Source of the DNA: an uncultured Acidobacteriota bacterium
GTDB lineage: Bacteria; Acidobacteriota; UBA4820; DSQY01
Reading direction: 5' to 3'
DNA: 64,000 nt
Assembly (NCBI GenBank): GCA_963772255.1
Contig: CAVYWK010000022.1
Coordinates: forward strand, 242,525 to 306,524
The position numbers and the translations under genes were made by a program. Numbering within the stretch: the first letter of the stretch is position 1; every line of letters starts with the position of its first letter. The notes under the pieces were generated by a model. That model made no database searches. It was not told where the DNA came from and worked only from the letters and a program-made list of their open reading frames with translations. Below are positions 28,192-37,824 of this stretch, piece by piece.

Positions 28192-28527
28192 TCAGCGTTT
28201 GTGGGGCCTGGGGTAGGCCTTGAGCGCCCAGAGGAGTTCGCGTGCCTCCCCCTGGAGGGAGGCGGAGAGCTTGTCGCCGGCATCCAGGCTGAGGATGGCC
28301 TCCTGGAAGGCGGCCAACCGGCATGGATTCTGGAGCGGGTGGGGGGCCGGGATTCCCCAGTCGCAGGCGGCGCACGACTCGTCACATCCGATGGCCCGGA
28401 GGGCCTCGGGCAAGTTCATCTGGCGCATGTGGTCCTGGAGGGAGCCCAGAGAGCTGAGTTTCTTCGTGTGGACGCACTCCTCCAGGAGCGAGGCCACTTC
28501 CTTGAGCCATTCCTGCGTGGACTTCAC
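28192..28527 (-). CDS. Hypothetical 111-aa protein with Cx3Cx2C-x13-C (paralogue of 37489-37824)
   Basis: RBS gggagg + GTG. Aligns without gaps to the second copy. Confidence 0.8.
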   Translation of the reverse strand: MKSTQEWLKEVASLLEECVHTKKLSSLGSLQDHMRQMNLPEALRAIGCDESCAACDWGIPAPHPLQNPCRLAAFQEAILSLDAGDKLSASLQGEARELLWALKAYPRPHKR

Positions 28528-28634: not shown

Positions 28635-28651
28635 CCAACCAGGGGGACGGC

Positions 28652-29899
28652 ATGAAGGAGAAGGACCTCTCCCGGCGAGGGTTCCTGGGGATGGCCGCAC
28701 GGTACGGGTCCGTCCTGGGGGGGGTGGGTGCGCTCCTTTCCAGCCCCGAGTTGCTCCGGCTCCTGGGGTGCGACCCCCTGGATCCGTCCGCGGAGCCCGT
28801 CGACGACATCATCCGGCGGTCTCCTGTGGCAAGGTACTGGACATCGCCCGCAACCCTCGCCCCCGACTGCGGGGCCTGTCATTCTGCGGCGGAACTGGCC
28901 AAGGGCTCCAGGCACACCCACAAGACCCGCGCGGTGAAGTGCCTCCTCTGCGCCCACGGCTGCCTCATCGCCGAGGGGGAACGCGGGCGGTGCCGCGCGC
29001 GCATGAACCTCCGGGGGGAACTGCGCTCCCTGGTCTACGGGCGACCCATGGCCGAGCACGTGGACCCCATCGAGAAGAAGCCGTTCTACCACTTTCTACC
29101 CGGCGCGCAGGCGTACTCCCTGGCCACGTCGGGGTGCCCGCTGCGCTGCAAATTTTGCCAGAACTGGGTCATCAGCCAGGCCCGGCCCGAGGACTACGAC
29201 GCGCCGTTCTGTCCCGCCCCGGCCATGGCGAACCGGGCCAGGGGCCGCGGTGCGCCCGTGCTGGCCTTCACCTACAACGAGCCCACGGTGTTTATCGAGT
29301 ACCTCACGGACATCGCCCGAGCCGCGAGGCCACAGGGGTTGCGGTCGGTGCTCATCTCCTGCGGTTTCATGAACGAGGGACCGCTCAAGGAGATGACCGG
29401 CGTGCTCGATGCCATCAAGATCGACCTGAAGGGATTCTCCCCCAAGTTCTACAGGGAGGTTTGCGGCGCCGAGCTGGCCCCCGTCCTTCGGAGCATCAAG
29501 CAGGTCGCACGGTCGGGCTGCCACCTGGAGATCGTCAACCTCGTGGTGCCCACGCTCAACGACTCGGACACGATGATGACCGAACTGATCAAGTGGATCG
29601 CCGGCGAAACGGGCCCCGACACCCCCGTGCACTTCACGCGCTTCCACCCCGACTACCAGCTCATGAATCTTCCCCCCACGCCCGTGGCCACGCTGGAGAG
29701 GGCCCGAGATGCGGCCATGGGAGCGGGACTGCACTATGCCTACGTGGGCAACGTGCCGGGTCACCCCGGGAACCATACCTACTGCCCCAAGTGCAACATG
29801 GCGGTCATCGAGCGCTCGGGGATGTTTGTCACCGCCATGAGACTCAAGGGCGGGGCCTGTCCCGCGTGCGGTACCAAGATTCCCGGAGTCTGGGTCTAG
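28652..29899 (+). CDS. amrS: AmmeMemoRadiSam radical SAM enzyme with twin-arginine leader
   Basis: SRRGFLG leader, CLLCAHGC..RC, DPIEKKPFYHF, GCPLRCKFCQN, TYNEP, HFTRFHPDY and YVGNV. Confidence 0.92.
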   Translation: MKEKDLSRRGFLGMAARYGSVLGGVGALLSSPELLRLLGCDPLDPSAEPVDDIIRRSPVARYWTSPATLAPDCGACHSAAELAKGSRHTHKTRAVKCLLCAHGCLIAEGERGRCRARMNLRGELRSLVYGRPMAEHVDPIEKKPFYHFLPGAQAYSLATSGCPLRCKFCQNWVISQARPEDYDAPFCPAPAMANRARGRGAPVLAFTYNEPTVFIEYLTDIARAARPQGLRSVLISCGFMNEGPLKEMTGVLDAIKIDLKGFSPKFYREVCGAELAPVLRSIKQVARSGCHLEIVNLVVPTLNDSDTMMTELIKWIAGETGPDTPVHFTRFHPDYQLMNLPPTPVATLERARDAAMGAGLHYAYVGNVPGHPGNHTYCPKCNMAVIERSGMFVTAMRLKGGACPACGTKIPGVWV

Positions 29900-30001: not shown

Positions 30002-31555
30002 ATGAAAAGGCTCTTGATGCCTGGCAAGACCACCTTCGCCTCCGCGCTTCTGGTCACCATGGTGTCTGGGTGGTTCATCTTATCTCCGTCGGATGTCGCG
30101 TCGGAGCCGGTGGACGCCATCGTGCGGCCGCCGGCGGTGGCGGGCAAGTTCTACCCCCAGGACGGGAAAAAACTCCGGTCCGCCGTGGAGGCGTATCTCG
30201 CCGATGCTCTGCCGCCCAAGGGCGAGCAACCCCTGGCCCTGGTGGCGCCCCATGCGGGATACATCTATTCGGGCCAAGTTGCGGCGGATGCCTTCAAGCA
30301 GGCGGCCGGGTATGAGATCGACCTGGTGGTCATCCTCGGGACGAACCACACCGTGCCGCCCTTCGATTCGGTCTCCGTCTTTCAAGGACGAGGCTACGCA
30401 ACCCCGCTTGGCGTGGCGATGACGGACCAGCCGGTGGCCCAGGCGCTCCTGGCGAGCGGGTTCGTCTACAGCCCCGAGGCCCACGCGGCGGAGCATTCGG
30501 AAGAGGTCCAGGTGCCCTTCGTTCAGGTGCTGTTCCCGAAAGCGAAAATCGTGACGGCCATCGTGGGGCGGCAAGACCTGACCCTGGCCACACGGTTCGG
30601 TCAGGCGCTGGCGAGGGTGATCAAGGGTCGAAAGGCGCTCGTCGTGGCGTCTTCGGATCTTTCCCACTATCCGCCCTACGATGAGGCGGCGGCGGCGGAC
30701 AGGGCCACCCTGATGGCGGTGGCGTCTCTGGACCCCAAGGCCGCCGCGGAATCCATCGCTCGGCAGATGAGAACCGGCCGCCCCGGGCTGGAGACCTGCG
30801 CCTGCGGCGAGGGCGCGATCCTCGCGGCCATGGTGGCGGCCAAGGCCATGGGCGCCACCCGGGGCACGGTTCTGAGCTACGCAAATTCCGGTGATACGGC
30901 CATCGGCGAGCGCGACCGCGTGGTGGGCTACGGGGCGGTGGTCTTCACCGCGGGCCCCGGAGGGACCGACACGGCTGCACTGGATGTGCCGCGGGTCGAC
31001 CGCGATGCCCAGCTCTCCGAGGCCGACAAACTGGTCCTGCTGAAGATCGCGCGCTCCACCGTGGAGCGGTATCTCACCACGGGTACGCTCCCCCTCCCCA
31101 GGGCCTCGACCCCCGCACTCCGGGCGAAGCAGGGGGCGTTTGTCACCCTCAAGAAGCACGGCGATCTCCGGGGTTGCATCGGTCACATGGCGGAGGACAC
31201 GCCCCTGGCCCAGGTCGTCTCTCGCATGGCCCTCGCGGCGGCCTTCGAGGACACGCGGTTTCCGCCCGTGCGCTCCGAAGAGCTCGCCTCTTTGGAGGTG
31301 GAGATCTCGGTCCTCACCCCGCTGTCCCCCGTTCCGGGGCCGGGCGCCGTGGTGGTGGGGCGAGACGGCGTGGTGGTTCGAAAGGCGGGGCGCAGTGCGG
31401 TGTTCCTGCCGCAAGTGGCACCCGAGCAGGGCTGGAGCCGGGACGAGCTTCTCGACCACCTCTGCGAGAAGGCGGGCCTGCCCCGCGACTGCTGGCGCGG
31501 GGGCTGTGAGCTCCTCACGTTCCGCGCCATCGTTTTCGAGGAGAAGAAGAAATAA
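30002..31555 (+). CDS. amrBA: AmmeMemoRadiSam protein B (MEMO1-like) - protein A (AMMECR1-like) fusion with N-terminal signal/anchor
   Basis: RPPAVAGKFYP, PHAGYIYSG, EHSEEVQ, SSDLSHY and CG for MEMO. GAFVTL..LRGCIG, DTRF, EISVL and FLPQV for AMMECR1. Confidence 0.92.
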   Translation: MKRLLMPGKTTFASALLVTMVSGWFILSPSDVASEPVDAIVRPPAVAGKFYPQDGKKLRSAVEAYLADALPPKGEQPLALVAPHAGYIYSGQVAADAFKQAAGYEIDLVVILGTNHTVPPFDSVSVFQGRGYATPLGVAMTDQPVAQALLASGFVYSPEAHAAEHSEEVQVPFVQVLFPKAKIVTAIVGRQDLTLATRFGQALARVIKGRKALVVASSDLSHYPPYDEAAAADRATLMAVASLDPKAAAESIARQMRTGRPGLETCACGEGAILAAMVAAKAMGATRGTVLSYANSGDTAIGERDRVVGYGAVVFTAGPGGTDTAALDVPRVDRDAQLSEADKLVLLKIARSTVERYLTTGTLPLPRASTPALRAKQGAFVTLKKHGDLRGCIGHMAEDTPLAQVVSRMALAAAFEDTRFPPVRSEELASLEVEISVLTPLSPVPGPGAVVVGRDGVVVRKAGRSAVFLPQVAPEQGWSRDELLDHLCEKAGLPRDCWRGGCELLTFRAIVFEEKKK

Positions 31556-31666: not shown

Positions 31667-33802
31667 ATGCTGTGGCTGGTGGCAGTGGGGCTCGTGACCC
31701 TTTGGGGGCAAGTGCTGCTCCTGAGGGAACTCCTGGTGGCTTTCTACGGCAACGACCTGGTCTACATCGTCGCCCTGGGCGGCCTCATGCTGTTCGCGGG
31801 GCTCGGCGCCCTTCTGGAGCGAAGACTGGGCCGCCACTCCGGAGCGAAGGTGCCCGCGCTCCTCATCGCCTTTGCGGTGGCCCTGCCCGTCCTTCTCGTG
31901 ATCCTCCGCGCGCTGGGGGTCCTGCTCGGCGGGACACCCGGCGCCGAACTCCCCCTGGGCCATCAGTTCCTGGCCCTGGGTCTCGTGCTCGCGCCCTACG
32001 GAATCCTGGCGGGGCTCCTTTTTCAGGGCGCGGCCACGCGCTATCTGAAAGCGGGCGGGACACTGGCGGGCGCCTATGCCACCGAGAGCTCCGGCGCCCT
32101 CGCGGGGGGACTTCTGGCCACGGTCACGGCGTTCCTGGGAATTTCCTGTTTCGCGGGAACGCTCCTGTGCGCGCTCGCGGCGGCTTGCGCGGCCTGCGTA
32201 CCTTGGACCGGCCGGCCACGCTGGCTCGCGGGGGTTGCGGCGCCGGTCATCCTCCTTCTCATGGCCGGATTGGCGCTCTCTCCGGGGCTCGACCGGAGCC
32301 TGACCGCGCTCAGCCATCCGGATCTTCGTGCCGCGGTGGACACGCCCTACGGCAGGACGGTGGTGGCGGGGGGCCTCGGGCAGGTGACGGTTTTTCACAA
32401 CGGCACCCTGGTCAGCGAGAGCCAGGGGACATCCTCGGAGGAATTCGTCCATCTGGCCGCATTGGAATGCGAGCTGCCTCGCCGGGTGTTGATTCTCGGG
32501 GGTACGTCGGAGGGACTCGCGGCCAGGGCCCTGGAACATGGTCCGCAACGCGTGGACCTGGTCGAGATGGACCGCGGCGCAGTGGACATCGAGAGCGGCT
32601 TCCTTCCGGAGAGGGACCGGGCGGCCCTCGCGGACGCGCGCGTGAAGCGTTCTTTCAAAGATCCCCGGCGGTTCCTGGCGGGAGCGGGCTCCTACGACCT
32701 CATCCTGTCGGCGGCGCCGGAACCCGGGTCGGGGGAGTCCAACCGCCTTTTCACCCGCGAGTTCTTTTCGCTATGCCGGGAGCACCTGTCCGCAGAGGGC
32801 GTGCTGGCCCTGCGCCTGCCCTCCTCCGAAAACCTCTGGACGAAGGCCCTCGCTTCGCGGAACGCCAGCGTGCTGGTCGCCCTGCGCGCCGTCTTCCCCC
32901 GGACCCTCGTCCTTCCAGGCACATCCGATCTGGTGCTCGCGTCTCCACGGCCCCTGGTGCGCGACCCCCGGATCCTCGCGGAAAGATGGAGAGCGCGAGG
33001 GATTGCGGCGCGCCTGGTGAACCCCGAGTACATCGCCTACCTCCTGACCAACGATCGTATCGCGGCGGCGGAATCGGCGTTGGCGCGGACCCAGGCTCCA
33101 GAAAATGCCGACGCGCGCCCGGCGTGCTACCCGTTCACGATGCTCCTGTGGCTCTCGAAGTTCTTCCCCGCCCTCGGGAATGTGTCAGCGCCGGGGACCC
33201 TGCCCTGGTACGGATTCGCCCTTCTCCCTGGTCTTCTCGCCGGCGCCGCGCTGCCGGCCCGCCGGCGCAACACGCTCCGCCGAGCCCTCTTCGTGGGTTC
33301 CGCCGGGTTCGCGGGAATGCTTCTGGAGGGCGCGCTCTTGCTTGCGTATCAGGCGCGGCGAGGCGCGCTATACCAGGACCTCGGCCTCCTCCTGACCTGC
33401 TTCATGGGCGGCCTGTGCCTCGGGGCTTGGGGCATGGGCCGCGTGGGGCGCAGGAAGGGGTCGGGTCTTGCAATAGCCCTCTGCACCTCCTCGGTGGGGG
33501 CGGTGTGCGCGTGGGCCATCCAGACGGGAGGGGCGGCGGGCCGGATGGGAACCGGGCTCCTTCTCGCGGCGGCCGGCGCCTGTGTGGGCGCCGCCTTCGC
33601 GTGGGCGGGGGACCAGGGCCAGGCCAACCCGTCAGCCCTGTCGGATCCCTCGCGGGGAATGGCCCCCCTCTACGCGGCGGATCTCTGGGGAGGATGCCTG
33701 GGCGCCCTGCTGGGAAGCTTGGTCTTCCTGCCCTTCTCGGGCCTCGCGTCCAGCGCCGGGCTTGTCTCACTCGTGGGGCTCGCCATGCTCCTGCTGGTTT
33801 GA
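31667..33802 (+). CDS. Multi-TM membrane protein with spermidine-synthase-like (Rossmann MTase-fold) domain
   Basis: Two TM blocks flank VLILGG, VDLVEMD, DPRRFL, YDLIL and LFTREFF. Confidence 0.8.
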   Translation: MLWLVAVGLVTLWGQVLLLRELLVAFYGNDLVYIVALGGLMLFAGLGALLERRLGRHSGAKVPALLIAFAVALPVLLVILRALGVLLGGTPGAELPLGHQFLALGLVLAPYGILAGLLFQGAATRYLKAGGTLAGAYATESSGALAGGLLATVTAFLGISCFAGTLLCALAAACAACVPWTGRPRWLAGVAAPVILLLMAGLALSPGLDRSLTALSHPDLRAAVDTPYGRTVVAGGLGQVTVFHNGTLVSESQGTSSEEFVHLAALECELPRRVLILGGTSEGLAARALEHGPQRVDLVEMDRGAVDIESGFLPERDRAALADARVKRSFKDPRRFLAGAGSYDLILSAAPEPGSGESNRLFTREFFSLCREHLSAEGVLALRLPSSENLWTKALASRNASVLVALRAVFPRTLVLPGTSDLVLASPRPLVRDPRILAERWRARGIAARLVNPEYIAYLLTNDRIAAAESALARTQAPENADARPACYPFTMLLWLSKFFPALGNVSAPGTLPWYGFALLPGLLAGAALPARRRNTLRRALFVGSAGFAGMLLEGALLLAYQARRGALYQDLGLLLTCFMGGLCLGAWGMGRVGRRKGSGLAIALCTSSVGAVCAWAIQTGGAAGRMGTGLLLAAAGACVGAAFAWAGDQGQANPSALSDPSRGMAPLYAADLWGGCLGALLGSLVFLPFSGLASSAGLVSLVGLAMLLLV

Positions 33803-33882
33803 GTGGTCGGTCTCAGTCGACGATGAAGACGCGGGCGCCCCGATCGGAGATGGCGCTGTGGGGGTTGGCTTCGTCGTCGGGT

Positions 33883-35173
33883 TCAGGTTTTGGCGAGGAG
33901 TGCTTCGAGGTAGCGCGATTTCACCTGCCGCGAGGCCAGCGCCTGCTTGATCGGCGGCATCTTGAGGAGGACGCCCAGGATGGCGGCGACGGCCCGGTGC
34001 CCGTAGGAGGCCTGGCCGTCCACGAGGAGTTCTGCGAAACATCCCCGCTCGATGGCCATGAGGACGACCTTGTGCGAGGTGTTGAGGGGGGTGAGGACGC
34101 GCTCCGCCCTGGCGCGGAGGTGGATCGCCTCCTCCGGGCAGGCCTGGACGCAGACGCCGCAGCCCAGGCACCGGTCCTCCTCCAGCTTGGCCGCCTTGGC
34201 GGCCGGTCGCCGGGCGTTGTGGGCGGAGACGAGTTCCAGGGCATCCACGGGGCACGCCGAGACGCACTTCCCGCACCCGTTGCAGGCGGCTCCCGTCAAG
34301 TTCGGGCAGGAAGTTGGTCGTGTGGACGGGACGCATGAAGCCGAAGCGCCGGGCGGCGATCAAGGCTTCGCAGCAGCACCCGCAGCAGTTGCAGATGAAG
34401 CTCACGCCTTCCCTCACGTTCTCCCCAAATTGCACGAGCCCCGTCTCCCTCGCCGCCGCCAGCAGATCCAGGCACTCCGCCGCCTCCACCCTCCTCGCCG
34501 CGCCGTGCCGAGTGAGGGAGGAGGCGGCCGTGCCGAAGGTCATGCAGATGTCCAGGGGGGCGTCGCAGGCCCGGTCCAGGTGGGCCATCTTGTGCCGGCA
34601 GTAGCAGAGGCCCACGCCGATGGCCGCGGCCCCCCGCACGACTTCGCTGGCCCGTTCGTAGTCCAGGACCTGGAGGGGGCCCCTGGCTTCAGCCTTGGGG
34701 TTCACGAGGGCCGTTTCGTTGACGAAAACCCGCCCGAGCTGCGTCTCACCTCGGGCGAAGAGCTCTCGGACGAAATCTTCCTCCACGTTGAGGTACTGGT
34801 AGAAGAGCTCGGAGAGGGCTCTCTGGTCCACGTCGCCTCTCACGCGCATGAGGGAGAACTCGAAAAAACCCGCCATGGGGGGCGGGAGGACATACCGCGT
34901 CTCCCCGTCCTCGGGGTAGTCCAGGAGGAGGGCCCGGTCCGCCAGGGCATCGAGAATCTTCCGCGCGTCCCCTTCGGGCAGGCGCCAGAGCGACGCGGCC
35001 CGCTTGGCCGTAAAGGGCCGGATGGGAAGCTGCGCCACCAGGGCGGCCTCGCGCTCGCTCAGCAGAATCTTCAGAATCTTGAAGAGCAACTCGGAGGGGG
35101 GCGCGCCCTGGGGAAATCGATTGAGCCGATCCACCAGGTCGTCGTAGCTCCCCTTCAGCGTTTGATGGGCCAT
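33883..35173 (-). pseudogene. 4Fe-4S dicluster protein interrupted by a +1 frameshift (may be a sequence error)
   Basis: CYCR and ICNCCGCCC are in one frame; two CxxCxxCxxxCP ferredoxin motifs are in the next. Deleting one base of the 3-base run at 34292-94 gives a 429-aa ORF. Confidence 0.8.
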
Positions 35174-35266
35174 GGCCGGTGCGCTCCCGAACCCCAAGAA
35201 TACACCCAACGGGGCGCGCTAAACTTCTGCCGGTTTCGGGCGTACCATGGCACGGGAGGGAGAGCC

Positions 35267-36487
35267 ATGAGCCGAGCGCGCTACGCATCGCTGAAACCCG
35301 TCTTGGAACCGGACCGCCGGGATTTTCTGAAGACCCTGGGCGTGGCCGCCGCGGGGGGCTTGGTTTTGGGAGTGCCCGATTTCGCGGACGAGCAACCTCC
35401 CGCCAAGCCGGCGCCTCCACCCGCGGAGGTGGAGACCAACATCGCCGACTTCATGAAGGTCCCCAAGGGCAAGTTCGCCCTCCCCGGCCCCTTTCCCGGC
35501 AAGGTGGTCCAGGTCACCGATGCCAAGTCCATGAAGGACCGTAACGTGGACCCCAAAGTGGTGTCCAAGATGTTTGAGAAGGGGCTCACCGAACTCACGG
35601 GGCTGTCGCCCCGGAAGAGCTTCGAACTGCTCTTCACCAAGGATGACGTGGTGGGGATCAAGGTCAACCCCGTGGGCGCCCCCCTCATCAACACCACCCC
35701 CGCGCTCGCCCTGGCCGTGGTTTCTTGGCTCGAAGCCAACGGCCTGCCCCGGAAGAACATCATCATCTGGGACCGCTTCGACGACATGCTCAAGGAGGCC
35801 GGGTTCACGGCCGAGCGCTTCCCCGGCGTCCGCATCGAGTCCCTCCAGACCATGGCCGAGGACGGAAAACCCTGGAAGAACGACAAGGGTGAACACCCCA
35901 GCGCGGCCAATTTCGACAAGGACGCCTACTACTTCGCCAAGGGCGTCATGGGCGCGGGCGTGAAGGGCTACGAGAACGACGACGCCTACGCCAACCAGCA
36001 CGTCTTCACCGGAGAGTATTCCTACTTCGGCAAACTCGTCACCGGCGGCCTCACCAAAATCATCAACCTGGCGGCCTTCAAGAACGCCGGCAACGGCATC
36101 TCCATGGCCACGAAGAACCTGGGCTACGGCGCCATCTGCAACACCGGCCGCCTCCACGCCCCCCTCTTTTTCAAGGTGTGCACGGAGGTCTGCGCCGCGC
36201 CCTGGGTGAGGGACAAGCTCGTCCTGAACGTCACCGACGGCATCCGCGGCCAGTACGACGGCGGGCCCATGGGCAACGAGCAGTTCTACTTCCCGAACCA
36301 TTCGCTCTACTTCGCCACCGACCCCTTCGCGCTGGACCGGGTCTGCCACGACCAGATCGTGTCCAAGCGAAAGGCCATGGGCGTCAAGGTCAACGACCAT
36401 CCGCGCTTCACCGATTACCTGGACTATGCCCAGAAACTCGGACTCGGCGTGGCCGACCCCATGAAAATCAAGCTCTACAAAGTGTGA
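35267..36487 (+). CDS. DUF362-like protein with twin-arginine signal
   Basis: DRRDFLK leader, VGIKVN, IIIWDR, MATKNLGYG, FATDPFALD and LGLG. Confidence 0.78.
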   Translation: MSRARYASLKPVLEPDRRDFLKTLGVAAAGGLVLGVPDFADEQPPAKPAPPPAEVETNIADFMKVPKGKFALPGPFPGKVVQVTDAKSMKDRNVDPKVVSKMFEKGLTELTGLSPRKSFELLFTKDDVVGIKVNPVGAPLINTTPALALAVVSWLEANGLPRKNIIIWDRFDDMLKEAGFTAERFPGVRIESLQTMAEDGKPWKNDKGEHPSAANFDKDAYYFAKGVMGAGVKGYENDDAYANQHVFTGEYSYFGKLVTGGLTKIINLAAFKNAGNGISMATKNLGYGAICNTGRLHAPLFFKVCTEVCAAPWVRDKLVLNVTDGIRGQYDGGPMGNEQFYFPNHSLYFATDPFALDRVCHDQIVSKRKAMGVKVNDHPRFTDYLDYAQKLGLGVADPMKIKLYKV

Positions 36488-37488: not shown

Positions 37489-37824
37489 TCAGTGCTTCCG
37501 GTGCACGGGTAGGCTGTCCAAGATCTCCAGGAGGGCCGCCGTGTCCCGCGGGGCGGGGGTCTCGCGGTTGGGGATCGCCTGCAGATCCTCGATAGCCTCC
37601 TGAAGCGCCACGAGTCTGCAGGTCCCGCGAAGCGGGTGCCCTCCAAGAAAGCCCCAGGAGCATTCCGAGCAGTGGTCCCCGCAACCCAGATCGGTCTCGG
37701 CCTGGCTCATGTCGATTTTCGTAATGTGGTCCTGGAGGAAGTCGGCCAAGTTGCGTCGCCCGCCCCAACGCGCCGTCTTCAGATATTTTCTCGCCTGCTG
37801 TATCCAGCGCTCGGTTTCATTCAC
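37489..37824 (-). CDS. Hypothetical 111-aa protein with Cx3Cx2C-x13-C (paralogue of 28192-28527)
   Basis: RBS aggagg + GTG. Aligns without gaps to the first copy. Confidence 0.8.
   Translation of the reverse strand: MNETERWIQQARKYLKTARWGGRRNLADFLQDHITKIDMSQAETDLGCGDHCSECSWGFLGGHPLRGTCRLVALQEAIEDLQAIPNRETPAPRDTAALLEILDSLPVHRKH

What the first reader, a model, noticed from the sequence alone, without database searches (positions are those of the whole stretch)
28652..28960. AmrS carries a Tat leader and an extra CxxCH motif
Seen: SRRGFLG, a hydrophobic stretch, LLGC (lipobox-like), then CGACH (28868-28882) and HTH before the normal AmrS Cys-rich start. Known: CxxCH is the heme c attachment motif, and radical SAM enzymes are normally cytoplasmic and need SAM plus a reductant. 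Inference: an exported radical SAM enzyme with a built-in heme or Zn site.
Basis: partly seen in the sequence, partly recalled or inferred. Interest (0 to 1): 0.62.

Follow-up and report, generated by a model that had tools for sequence, protein, structure and literature searches.

The report
Exported radical SAM enzyme with haem-c motif
This iron-sulfur "radical SAM" enzyme carries a conserved export signal and a conserved inserted loop with the motif that normally anchors haem in cytochromes c, so it probably works outside the cytoplasm, where this chemistry has not been described.

Summary
ORF 28652-29899 is an AmrS radical SAM enzyme (TIGR04337, 339 bits). It has about 87 extra N-terminal residues:
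- a twin-arginine leader (SRRGFLG; TIGR01409 above cut-off);
- a roughly 24-residue loop inserted into the first hairpin, carrying C73-G-A-C76-H77 and H90.

In 120 homologues (63-97% identity) RR is kept in 116 and CxxCH in 119. The two x positions vary freely (49 variants), and every CxxCH copy has a His 8-16 residues downstream.

CxxCH-bearing AmrS form one well-supported clade across at least 10 phyla, with two secondary losses.

Export is supported independently:
- The downstream AmrB-AmrA fusion carries a Sec or lipoprotein signal in nearly every locus.
- RR leaders occur only in genomes with TatC (35/35). Genomes with Sec-like AmrS leaders mostly lack TatC (9/10).

All 23 genomes with CxxCH-AmrS have cytochrome c assembly genes. 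A profile of the loop finds only AmrS and multihaem cytochromes among 1.84 billion proteins.

LLGC is not a credible or conserved lipobox.

Haem versus another metal site is unresolved, and nothing here is experimental. I found no literature describing this. Best reading: a Tat-exported AmrS with a bis-His haem c loop as electron entry (confidence about 0.5; export alone about 0.8).

The parts
28642..28647 (+). Shine-Dalgarno-like GGGGGA, 4 nt before the ATG
   Evidence: Read directly from the sequence.
28652..29899 (+). amrS, 415 aa: AmmeMemoRadiSam radical SAM enzyme with an N-terminal extension
   Evidence: TIGR04337 scores 338.7 bits (cut-off 220) over residues 88-414. PF04055 Radical_SAM also matches. 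AF2 gives pLDDT 85.8, and the closest solved fold is PFL-AE 3cb8.
28652..28768 (+). Twin-arginine leader, residues 1 to about 39. The RR motif S7-G13 lies at 28670-28690 and the h-region spans G19-S31. The cleavage site is not determined.
   Evidence: TIGR01409 TAT_signal_seq scores 19.3 bits (cut-off 16.7). R8 and R9 are invariant and F11 is at least 90% conserved. AF2 models a helix at 8-29 and disorder at 41-47.
28760..28771 (+).
   Evidence: The Cys is not conserved, and R36 sits at -4.
28829..28840 (+). A60-R61-Y62-W63, first strand of the N-terminal hairpin, equivalent to ARFY/ARYY in canonical AmrS
   Evidence: A60, R61 and W63 are invariant. The alignment with CxxCH-less relatives shows the equivalence.
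28844..28915 (+). Clade-specific insertion of about 24 residues (S65-H88) in the hairpin loop
   Evidence: Absent from CxxCH-less relatives such as L026 and L029-L084. AF2 models it as coil with a short helix at 73-75, pLDDT 69-83.
28868..28882 (+). C73-G-A-C76-H77, a CxxCH haem c attachment-type motif
   Evidence: Present in 119 of 120 homologues with 49 different xx pairs; invariant in A1 and A2.
28919..28921 (+). H90, candidate distal axial ligand
   Evidence: A His lies 7 residues before the first core Cys in 114 of 120 homologues. Every CxxCH copy has a His 8-16 residues downstream.
28940..28993 (+). N-terminal four-Cys motif of AmrS (C97, C100, C104, C114), a presumed auxiliary metal or cluster site
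   Evidence: Invariant columns. Cluster binding is inferred, not tested.
29135..29158 (+). Radical SAM cluster motif C162-x3-C166-x2-C169 (CPLRCKFC)
   Evidence: Invariant columns; PF04055 match.
29783..29869 (+). C-terminal Cys pairs C378-x2-C381 and C403-x2-C406 (zinc-ribbon-like)
   Evidence: Invariant columns.
30002..31555 (+). amrB-amrA fusion (Memo + AMMECR1), 517 aa, with an N-terminal Sec-type signal (about residues 1-34, 30002-30103)
   Evidence: TIGR04336 scores 243.6 bits and TIGR04335 scores 180.6 bits. A signal or lipobox precedes the Memo domain in nearly all related loci. It has no Tat model hit.
31667..33802 (+). Polytopic membrane protein with a spermidine-synthase-like domain; conserved third gene of the operon
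   Evidence: PF01564 and PRK03612 match. It follows amrBA in all 16 loci of the CxxCH clade (14 CxxCH-bearing, 2 that lost the motif) that have enough flank.
35267..36487 (+). DUF362 protein with its own Tat signal; a neighbour and possible redox partner
   Evidence: PF04015 scores 43.4 bits and PF10518 TAT_signal 23.7 bits. TIGR01409 scores 24.3 bits.

Best explanation
This is a distinct subfamily of the AmmeMemoRadiSam radical SAM enzyme AmrS that is built to work outside the cytoplasm.

Proposed sequence of events:
1. The protein receives its Fe-S clusters in the cytoplasm (established knowledge of Fe-S assembly).
2. The Tat pathway exports it folded, through the SRRGFLG leader (inferred from conserved signals).
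3. In the periplasm the cytochrome c maturation system attaches haem covalently to C73 and C76 of a flexible loop of about 24 residues inserted into the first hairpin. H77 and H90 serve as axial ligands, giving a bis-His low-spin haem c (inferred).
4. The haem sits next to the N-terminal four-Cys site. It would take electrons from periplasmic low-potential cytochromes and pass them to the radical SAM cluster, replacing the cytoplasmic flavodoxin or ferredoxin donor (speculative).
5. The enzyme then acts together with the Sec-exported AmrB-AmrA (Memo-AMMECR1) fusion and the conserved membrane spermidine-synthase-like protein on an unknown envelope substrate.

The source of SAM outside the cell is unknown.
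For: **Identity.** TIGR04337 scores 338.7 bits. AmrB/AmrA is encoded directly downstream.

**Leader.**
- TIGR01409 scores above its cut-off.
- RR is invariant across 40 diverse homologues and present in 116 of 120.

**Export, from evidence independent of AmrS.**
- AmrB-AmrA has a hydrophobic signal, often with a lipobox Cys, in essentially every locus where it follows amrS.
- All 35 genomes with an RR-leader AmrS have TatC. Nine of 10 genomes whose AmrS has a Sec-like leader lack TatC.
- The window's genome encodes at least 10 other canonical RR-leader proteins.

**Haem.**
- C, C and H are invariant while the two x positions take 49 variants.
- Every copy has a His 8-16 residues downstream, and 114 of 120 have it at a fixed position.
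- The motif lies in a clade-defining insertion that AF2 models as a cofactor-less coil with a helical turn at CxxC.
- All 23 genomes with CxxCH-AmrS have PF01578 cytochrome c assembly genes, against 13 of 27 without the motif.
- The window's genome has ccmABC and at least 20 ORFs with 3-16 CxxCH motifs.
- A profile of the loop searched against 1.84 billion proteins hits only AmrS and multihaem cytochromes c. The cytochromes match repeatedly over positions 17-46, that is CxxCH plus the downstream His.
Against: - There is no experimental evidence of any kind.
- TatC and CcmF were not found in this 86%-complete assembly.
- No curated cytochrome c model matches above threshold. PF09698 scores 17 bits against a cut-off of 21.7, and weak zinc-ribbon hits are equally good.
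- I know of no characterised Tat substrate that carries covalent haem c. Haem would have to be attached to a loop of an already folded protein.
- Two clade members (L018, L026) lost the motif and one homologue (P0024) has FGTCH, so the module is dispensable.
- The genome-level associations rest on only 1-4 phylogenetically independent contrasts and are not statistically significant once relatedness is considered.
- Relatives in TatC-less genomes carry Sec-like leaders, which is hard to reconcile with export of an Fe-S enzyme.
- Neither SAM nor a sufficiently low-potential donor is known outside the cytoplasm.
Confidence: 0.5

Rival explanations
1. The enzyme is exported by Tat, but the inserted C73/C76/H77/H90 loop binds a non-haem metal loaded in the cytoplasm before export. 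Candidates are Zn, Fe, or extra ligands that remodel the neighbouring four-Cys site into a larger Fe-S centre. The loop would then be structural or a redox site.
For: - Tat substrates normally receive their cofactors before export.
- The spacing C-x2-C-x11/12-H-x-H resembles a C2H2 zinc finger.
- The pair CxxC...CxxC (C73/C76 with C97/C100) gives weak sub-threshold hits to zinc-ribbon models.
- The protein already has two other Cys-rich metal motifs.
- AF2 gives the loop moderate confidence without any cofactor.
Against: - The His immediately after the second Cys is invariant. A zinc ribbon or rubredoxin knuckle does not need it and sterically disfavours it as a co-ligand with C76.
- H88, the residue that would complete a C2H2 pattern, is present in only about half of the homologues (63 of 120).
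- The only non-AmrS proteins found with the loop profile are multihaem cytochromes.
- The motif is never found in a genome without cytochrome c maturation genes.
Confidence: 0.25
2. The leader does not drive export. It is a vestigial or chaperone-binding Tat-like peptide, or a membrane tether, and AmrS works at the cytoplasmic face. CxxCH then binds a metal in the cytoplasm.
For: - Radical SAM chemistry needs SAM and a low-potential reductant, both known only inside the cell.
- Remnant Tat signals that bind chaperones exist (NarG, from my own knowledge).
- TatC is not found in this assembly.
- Two loci pair a leaderless AmrS with a signal-bearing AmrB-AmrA (L047, L060). So the two partners need not share a compartment.
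Against: - The partner AmrB-AmrA carries Sec or lipoprotein signals with a lipobox Cys in many loci.
- The leader switches from RR-type to Sec-type exactly in genomes lacking TatC.
- The leader has a full n/h/c organisation and is conserved across at least 10 phyla.
- The neighbouring DUF362 protein has its own Tat signal.
Confidence: 0.12
3. Annotation artefact: the gene starts downstream, and the RR and CxxCH motifs are chance features of an untranslated or mis-framed upstream region.
For: High-GC genomes produce long spurious upstream extensions (many are seen).
Against: - The region is conserved as protein, with variable codons and variable xx residues, in 120 homologues down to 63% identity and in 23 genomes of at least 10 phyla.
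- The only internal Met before the core is M14, which would still include the h-region and the CxxCH loop.
- A GGGGGA ribosome-binding site precedes the ATG.
Confidence: 0.02

Closest known systems
Canonical AmmeMemoRadiSam system radical SAM enzyme (AmrS; NCBIfam TIGR04337), partnered with AmrB (Memo, TIGR04336) and AmrA (AMMECR1, TIGR04335); function uncharacterised
   Same: - Full-length match to the family model from residue 88.
- Same CxxxCxxC cluster motif, N-terminal four-Cys motif and C-terminal Cys pairs.
- Same gene partnership.
   Different: - About 87 extra N-terminal residues: a twin-arginine leader and a roughly 24-residue CxxCH...H loop inserted into the first hairpin.
- The partners are fused and carry a Sec signal.
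- A membrane spermidine-synthase-like gene is a fixed third member.
- Leaderless relatives exist: L034, L047, L060, L068, L071.
Pyruvate formate-lyase activating enzyme (PflA; PDB 3cb8, 3c8f)
   Same: Closest solved fold: Foldseek E = 7e-15, TM-score 0.78 on the target. The sequence match covers the radical SAM core. Databases often name these proteins 'PFL activating enzyme'.
   Different: PflA is cytoplasmic and is reduced by flavodoxin. It has no leader, no N- or C-terminal Cys domains and no CxxCH. Identity is only 17%.
CxxCH-less, leader-bearing AmrS clades (for example L029-L084: Acidobacteriaceae, Planctomycetota, Omnitrophota)
   Same: Same family, same exported-looking architecture (Tat or Sec-like leader), and same AmrB-AmrA and membrane SpeE-like partners.
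   Different: They have no insertion and no CxxCH. Fourteen of 32 RR-leader loci have a Tat-signal DUF362 gene directly upstream of amrS, which the CxxCH loci never have (0 of 17). They form separate branches of the tree.
Bis-His haem units of multihaem c-type cytochromes (c3/c7-like repeats; Pfam PF09698 is the nearest model)
   Same: CxxCH followed by a His 11-13 residues later, within about 25-35 residues per haem. Otherwise the sequence is unconserved. Multihaem cytochromes are the only non-AmrS hits of the loop profile.
   Different: - A single unit is embedded in a loop of an Fe-S enzyme.
- The leader is Tat rather than Sec.
- The match to any curated cytochrome model is below threshold.
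- Haem binding is not shown.

Membership tests
AmmeMemoRadiSam radical SAM enzyme (TIGR04337) | Score above the curated cut-off of the family model | tested here: met
   338.7 bits against a cut-off of 220, residues 88-414 on model positions 5-333.
AmmeMemoRadiSam radical SAM enzyme (TIGR04337) | CxxxCxxC radical SAM cluster motif | tested here: met
   C162-P-L-R-C166-K-F-C169 is invariant in 40 homologues. PF04055 matches.
AmmeMemoRadiSam radical SAM enzyme (TIGR04337) | Encoded next to AmrB (Memo) and AmrA (AMMECR1) | tested here: met
   The fusion at 30002-31555 matches TIGR04336 (243.6 bits) and TIGR04335 (180.6 bits). The same order is seen in related loci.
AmmeMemoRadiSam radical SAM enzyme (TIGR04337) | Reductive cleavage of SAM / enzymatic activity | not testable with these tools
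   No substrate or activity is known for any family member in the literature I could search.
Twin-arginine (Tat) signal peptide | S/T-R-R-x-F-L-K consensus followed by an uncharged h-region | tested here: met
   S7-R8-R9-G-F-L-G is followed by an uncharged stretch G19-S31. R17 lies between the motif and that stretch.
Twin-arginine (Tat) signal peptide | Match to the curated Tat signal model | tested here: met
   TIGR01409 scores 19.3 bits against a cut-off of 16.7 for the window's N-terminus. Seven homologues tested score 0-20 bits, and only one of them exceeds the cut-off.
Twin-arginine (Tat) signal peptide | Tat translocase (TatC) encoded in the genome | tested here: inconclusive
   There is no TatC hit in this 86%-complete assembly. 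The nearest relative and all 35 other genomes with RR-leader AmrS have TatC. At least 10 other RR-leader proteins are encoded here.
Twin-arginine (Tat) signal peptide | Signal peptidase site (AxA) and demonstrated export | not testable with these tools
   No conserved AxA is present, and the linker 41-47 is disordered in the model. Export needs an experiment.
c-type cytochrome (covalent haem) | CxxCH motif under selection | tested here: met
   Present in 119 of 120 homologues. C, C and H are invariant and xx is free.
c-type cytochrome (covalent haem) | Conserved sixth ligand (His or Met) | tested here: met
   A His lies 8-16 residues after CxxCH in all 119 copies, and at a fixed position in 114.
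c-type cytochrome (covalent haem) | Cytochrome c maturation system in the genome | tested here: inconclusive
   The window's genome has ccmA-B-C (below the curated cut-offs) but no CcmF by HMM or tblastn. It has at least 20 multi-CxxCH ORFs. All 23 other genomes with CxxCH-AmrS have PF01578 genes.
c-type cytochrome (covalent haem) | Match to a curated cytochrome c family model | tested here: not met
   The best match is PF09698 at 17 bits against a cut-off of 21.7, in 2 of 8 fragments. Zinc-ribbon models score about the same.
c-type cytochrome (covalent haem) | Covalently bound haem demonstrated | not testable with these tools
   This needs a haem stain, pyridine haemochrome or mass spectrometry.
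Bacterial lipoprotein (lipobox) | [LVI][ASTVI][GAS]C at the end of an uncharged h-region, conserved Cys | tested here: not met
   LLGC lies 9 residues after the h-region with E33 and R36 in between. Only the 97%-identical homologue shares the Cys. Five other homologues have LLSC at the proper place instead.

The most novel reading that the evidence does not exclude
A widespread clade of AmrS enzymes would be the first radical SAM enzymes shown to operate outside the cytoplasmic membrane. It would also be the first to carry covalently bound haem c. The enzyme would be exported by Tat with its Fe-S clusters and haem-loaded afterwards on an inserted loop. The periplasmic cytochrome pool would then reduce it, which implies that SAM or a tightly bound, regenerated SAM cofactor is available in the periplasm. 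The Memo-AMMECR1 proteins, conserved up to humans and of unknown function, would in these bacteria act on an envelope substrate.
Probability: 0.4. Interest if true: 0.9.

Novelty: new variant of a known kind. Interest (0 to 1): 0.77.

Why it matters
Radical SAM enzymes are treated as strictly cytoplasmic, because they need SAM, Fe-S assembly and a very low-potential electron donor. A conserved, multi-phylum subfamily whose enzyme and partners all carry export signals challenges that rule.

The inserted CxxCH...H loop suggests how such an enzyme could be reduced outside the cell. It would also be an unusual case of haem attachment to a Tat substrate.

The finding gives a concrete experimental handle on the AmmeMemoRadiSam system. 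Its Memo and AMMECR1 components are conserved up to humans, and their biochemical function is still unknown.

Testing is straightforward: a haem stain and a tatC-dependent export assay in E. coli.

Tried and rejected
- **Literature.** Searches for AmmeMemoRadiSam, for AMMECR1/Memo/radical SAM, for periplasmic or exported radical SAM, and for Tat plus CxxCH found no description of an exported or haem-bearing AmrS. The most relevant paper is Burroughs et al. 2019, J Biol Chem, on Memo-AMMECR1 contexts. It is not held, so I cannot exclude that it mentions signal peptides.
- **Pfam scan of the isolated loop.** Only sub-threshold hits appeared, split between a Geobacter CxxCH model and zinc ribbons. 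This does not discriminate.
- **Phylogenetically independent contrasts.** For leader type against TatC, and for CxxCH against cytochrome c assembly genes, only 1-4 contrasts were available. The raw Fisher values (1e-8 and 2e-5) therefore cannot be taken as significance.
- **AF2 model.** It gives confidence and secondary structure only, without coordinates. I could not measure the Cys/His geometry or the distance to the four-Cys site.
- **Solved structures.** PDB sequence and fold searches return only PFL-AE-like radical SAM cores, with nothing for the N-terminal module.
- **CcmF.** A tblastn search with the nearest relative's gene found nothing in this assembly.
- **Topology of the membrane SpeE-like protein.** A crude hydropathy scan could not settle it.
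- **Rejected readings.** The lipoprotein reading of LLGC and a downstream start are both rejected.
Full report
**What is there**

The ORF at 28652-29899 (+) encodes a 415-aa protein. A GGGGGA ribosome-binding site lies four bases before the ATG.
- It is an AmmeMemoRadiSam radical SAM enzyme (AmrS). TIGR04337 scores 338.7 bits against a cut-off of 220, and the alignment begins only at residue 88.
- The radical SAM domain is confirmed by Pfam. The AF2 model has mean pLDDT 85.8, and its nearest solved fold is pyruvate formate-lyase activating enzyme.
- Directly downstream lies a Memo-AMMECR1 (AmrB-AmrA) fusion at 30002-31555. A polytopic membrane protein with a spermidine-synthase-like domain follows at 31667-33802.

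- S7-R8-R9-G-F-L-G;
- an uncharged Gly-rich stretch;
- L37-L-G-C40;
- C73-G-A-C76-H77 at 28868-28882;
- H88-T-H90;
- the normal AmrS start C97-L-L-C100-A-H-G-C104.

**Is the extension real and conserved?**

A search of 5.8 billion proteins returned thousands of relatives. The 120 best (63-97% identity) are nearly all 408-420 aa and align over the whole length.
- Among them RR is present in 116, ARYW in 119 and CxxCH in 119.
- The two x positions take 49 different combinations while C, C and H never change.
- The spacing from CxxCH to the first core Cys is 24 residues in 102 of 120.
- A His lies 7 residues before that Cys in 114.
- All 119 copies have a His 8-16 residues after the motif.
- In a 40-sequence alignment R8, R9, P58, A60, R61, W63, C73, C76 and H77 are invariant.

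The one exception, P0024, reads FGTCH; it has lost only the first Cys. A downstream start is therefore excluded. The leader itself passes the curated Tat-signal model (TIGR01409, 19.3 bits against 16.7).

The Cys of LLGC is shared only by the 97%-identical homologue. It also sits beyond the h-region, behind E33 and R36. Five close homologues have LLSC at the proper place instead. Lipidation is at most sporadic and is not supported here.

**Anatomy of the CxxCH module**

I aligned the protein with relatives that lack the motif. ARYW (residues 60-63) corresponds to the ARFY/ARYY strand that in ordinary AmrS sits about 8 residues before the first Cys. Here about 24 residues (S65-H88) are inserted into that hairpin loop. 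H90 replaces a Leu of the canonical sequence. AF2 models the insertion as coil with one helical turn at C73-A75 and only moderate confidence (pLDDT 69-83). The leader forms a helix at 8-29 and residues 41-47 are disordered.

**Distribution**

A scan of one genome per species gave 80 loci. I classified 77 of them, plus the window (78 in all), for the leader counts below. I extended each AmrS ORF to its start and classified the N-termini (corrected by eye):
- about 60 have RR leaders;
- about 11 have Sec-like leaders without RR;
- 5-6 have no leader.

CxxCH occurs in 22 sequences, all with RR leaders. I built a tree from the core only, leaving out the extension. In it the CxxCH proteins form one clade (SH-aLRT 99 for 22 rows; 86 when an Anaerolineae sequence is included) on a long stem. 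The clade spans Acidobacteriota, Thermodesulfobacteriota, Myxococcota-labelled MAGs, KSB1, Latescibacterota, Ignavibacteriota, Fibrobacterota, Eisenbacteria, Aminicenantota and Chloroflexota. One gain and two losses (L018, L026) suffice.

The window's nearest relative is an Acidobacteria MAG: 78% identity over the full length and 83% over the core. It shares the upstream MntP and 111-aa Cys-protein genes.

The gene order amrS, amrBA, membrane SpeE-like gene is kept in all 16 loci of this clade with enough flank.

**Is it really exported?**

Three lines of evidence are independent of the AmrS leader.

1. *The partner protein.* The AmrB-AmrA fusion has a strongly hydrophobic N-terminal signal just before the Memo domain in essentially every locus where it follows amrS. 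Many of these signals end in a lipobox Cys. The window's copy starts MKRLLMPGK-TTFASALLVTMVSGWFIL-SPSDVAS and does not match the Tat model.

2. *The leader type follows the machinery.* TatC is found in all 35 genomes whose AmrS has an RR leader. It is missing from 9 of the 10 genomes whose AmrS has a Sec-like leader.

3. *Other Tat substrates.* The window's genome encodes at least ten other textbook RR-leader proteins. One of them is the DUF362 protein of this same cluster.

There are caveats:
- TatC itself is not found in this 86%-complete assembly.
- The association rests on only 1-4 phylogenetically independent contrasts, so the raw Fisher value has no statistical weight.
- Two loci pair a leaderless AmrS with a signal-bearing AmrB-AmrA.
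- A Sec-type leader on an Fe-S enzyme is itself unexplained.

**Haem or another metal?**

Haem c accounts for all four selected residues. C73 and C76 would form the thioether bonds, H77 would be the proximal ligand, and H90 the distal ligand.

The necessary condition holds. All 23 other genomes with CxxCH-AmrS contain PF01578 cytochrome c assembly genes, against 13 of 27 genomes with CxxCH-less AmrS. Independent contrasts are again too few for significance.

The window's genome has a ccmA-B-C cluster and at least 20 ORFs with 3-16 CxxCH motifs. No CcmF was found, and the nearest relative does have one.

I searched a profile of the loop (47 positions) against 1.84 billion representative proteins. 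It returned 60 hits. About 50 are AmrS or fragments of it. The other roughly 10 are multihaem cytochromes c that match 6-19 times each over the CxxCH-to-His part. The module was found in no other enzyme context.

Against haem:
- No curated cytochrome model reaches threshold, and zinc-ribbon models score about equally.
- The CxxC...H-x-H spacing recalls a C2H2 finger, although H88 is kept in only half of the sequences.
- As far as I know, no Tat substrate with covalent haem c has been characterised.

I put haem c at roughly 0.55-0.6, another metal site at about 0.25, and export at about 0.8.

**Mechanism proposed**

- *Shown by sequence:* the family identity, the conserved leader, the insertion and the partner signals.
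- *Inferred:* Tat export after cytoplasmic Fe-S loading, and periplasmic haem attachment to the flexible loop by the Ccm system.
- *Speculative:* the bis-His haem relays electrons from periplasmic cytochromes to the adjacent four-Cys site and on to the radical SAM cluster.

The SAM source outside the cell is unknown. The conserved membrane protein with a SAM/dcSAM-type fold is the obvious candidate to examine.

A complementary pattern fits a redox-partner swap. A Tat-signal DUF362 gene lies directly upstream of amrS in 14 of 32 CxxCH-less RR-leader loci, and in none of 17 CxxCH loci. This is also a clade property.

**Comparison with what is known**

The protein is a member of TIGR04337 by every testable criterion. 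It departs from the canonical form in localisation signals and in the inserted module.

Full-text searches found no paper on an exported or haem-bearing AmrS or on any extracytoplasmic radical SAM enzyme. The 2019 survey of Memo contexts could not be read.

Earlier notes of this scan have flagged exported AmmeMemoRadiSam systems in other genomes, and one proposed the bis-His haem. These are unverified AI notes that agree with my reading. They are not independent evidence.

**Verdict**

This is a new variant of a known family. It is of high interest because it places radical SAM chemistry, and possibly a cytochrome c module, outside the cytoplasm.

Noticed in passing
L038, L041, L044, L058, L059, L065, L066, L069, L081, L083 (AmrS N-termini): In Omnitrophota, Elusimicrobiota, Ratteibacteria and similar small genomes, AmrS carries a classical Sec-type signal (for example MKKSLLLLILLLSVLFPAIGA) instead of an RR leader. 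Nine of these 10 genomes lack both TatC and cytochrome c assembly genes. How an Fe-S radical SAM enzyme could be exported unfolded is unexplained.
   Followed up: partly
L047 and L060: A genuinely leaderless AmrS (no upstream frame encodes a leader) sits next to an AmrB-AmrA fusion that has a signal peptide or lipobox. In these loci the two partners seem to be in different compartments. L060 has an EAKYYKVLDE remnant in another frame just upstream.
   Followed up: partly
Genome contig C26 (L002), also C36, C37, C35 versus C22, C29, C18: A second copy of amrS-amrBA, about 97% identical, lies on another contig, and other contig pairs also duplicate each other. This probably reflects strain heterogeneity in the MAG rather than true paralogy.
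   Followed up: partly
window 33767-35209 (-): The Fe-S protein gene looks frameshifted. The N-terminal 300 aa, including CNCCGCCC, are in one frame. A 2x[4Fe-4S] ferredoxin domain (33883-34299) follows in another frame, and the tail of the first frame is low-complexity Pro/Arg/Gly.
   Followed up: no
L029, L036, L039, L040, L042, L043, L045, L046, L053, L055-L057, L061, L062, L067, L070, L078, L082; window 35267-36487: A DUF362 protein with its own Tat signal lies directly upstream of amrS in 14 of 32 CxxCH-less RR-leader loci, and in 0 of 17 CxxCH loci. The window has one 5.4 kb downstream. This may be an alternative redox partner to the CxxCH loop.
   Followed up: partly
P0024 (473 aa, 70% identical homologue): The motif reads F-G-T-C-H: the first Cys is lost while Cys-His and the downstream His are kept. 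This resembles single-thioether haem motifs.
   Followed up: no
window 28192-28527 (-) and 37489-37824 (-): Two 111-aa Cys-rich paralogues flank the cluster and match no Pfam or NCBIfam family. The first is 68% identical to a gene in the same divergent position in the nearest relative (L005). It is absent from the other loci.
   Followed up: partly
Genome contig C32 (L003:384-1190, -): A gene resembling (R)-S-adenosyl-L-methionine hydrolase (NF058624, 187 bits, below its cut-off) lies immediately next to the ccmA-B-C cluster.
   Followed up: no
Whole genome G000: TatC and CcmF are both undetectable, although the genome encodes at least 10 RR-leader proteins and at least 20 multihaem-type ORFs. 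They most likely fall in the missing 14% of the assembly.
   Followed up: partly
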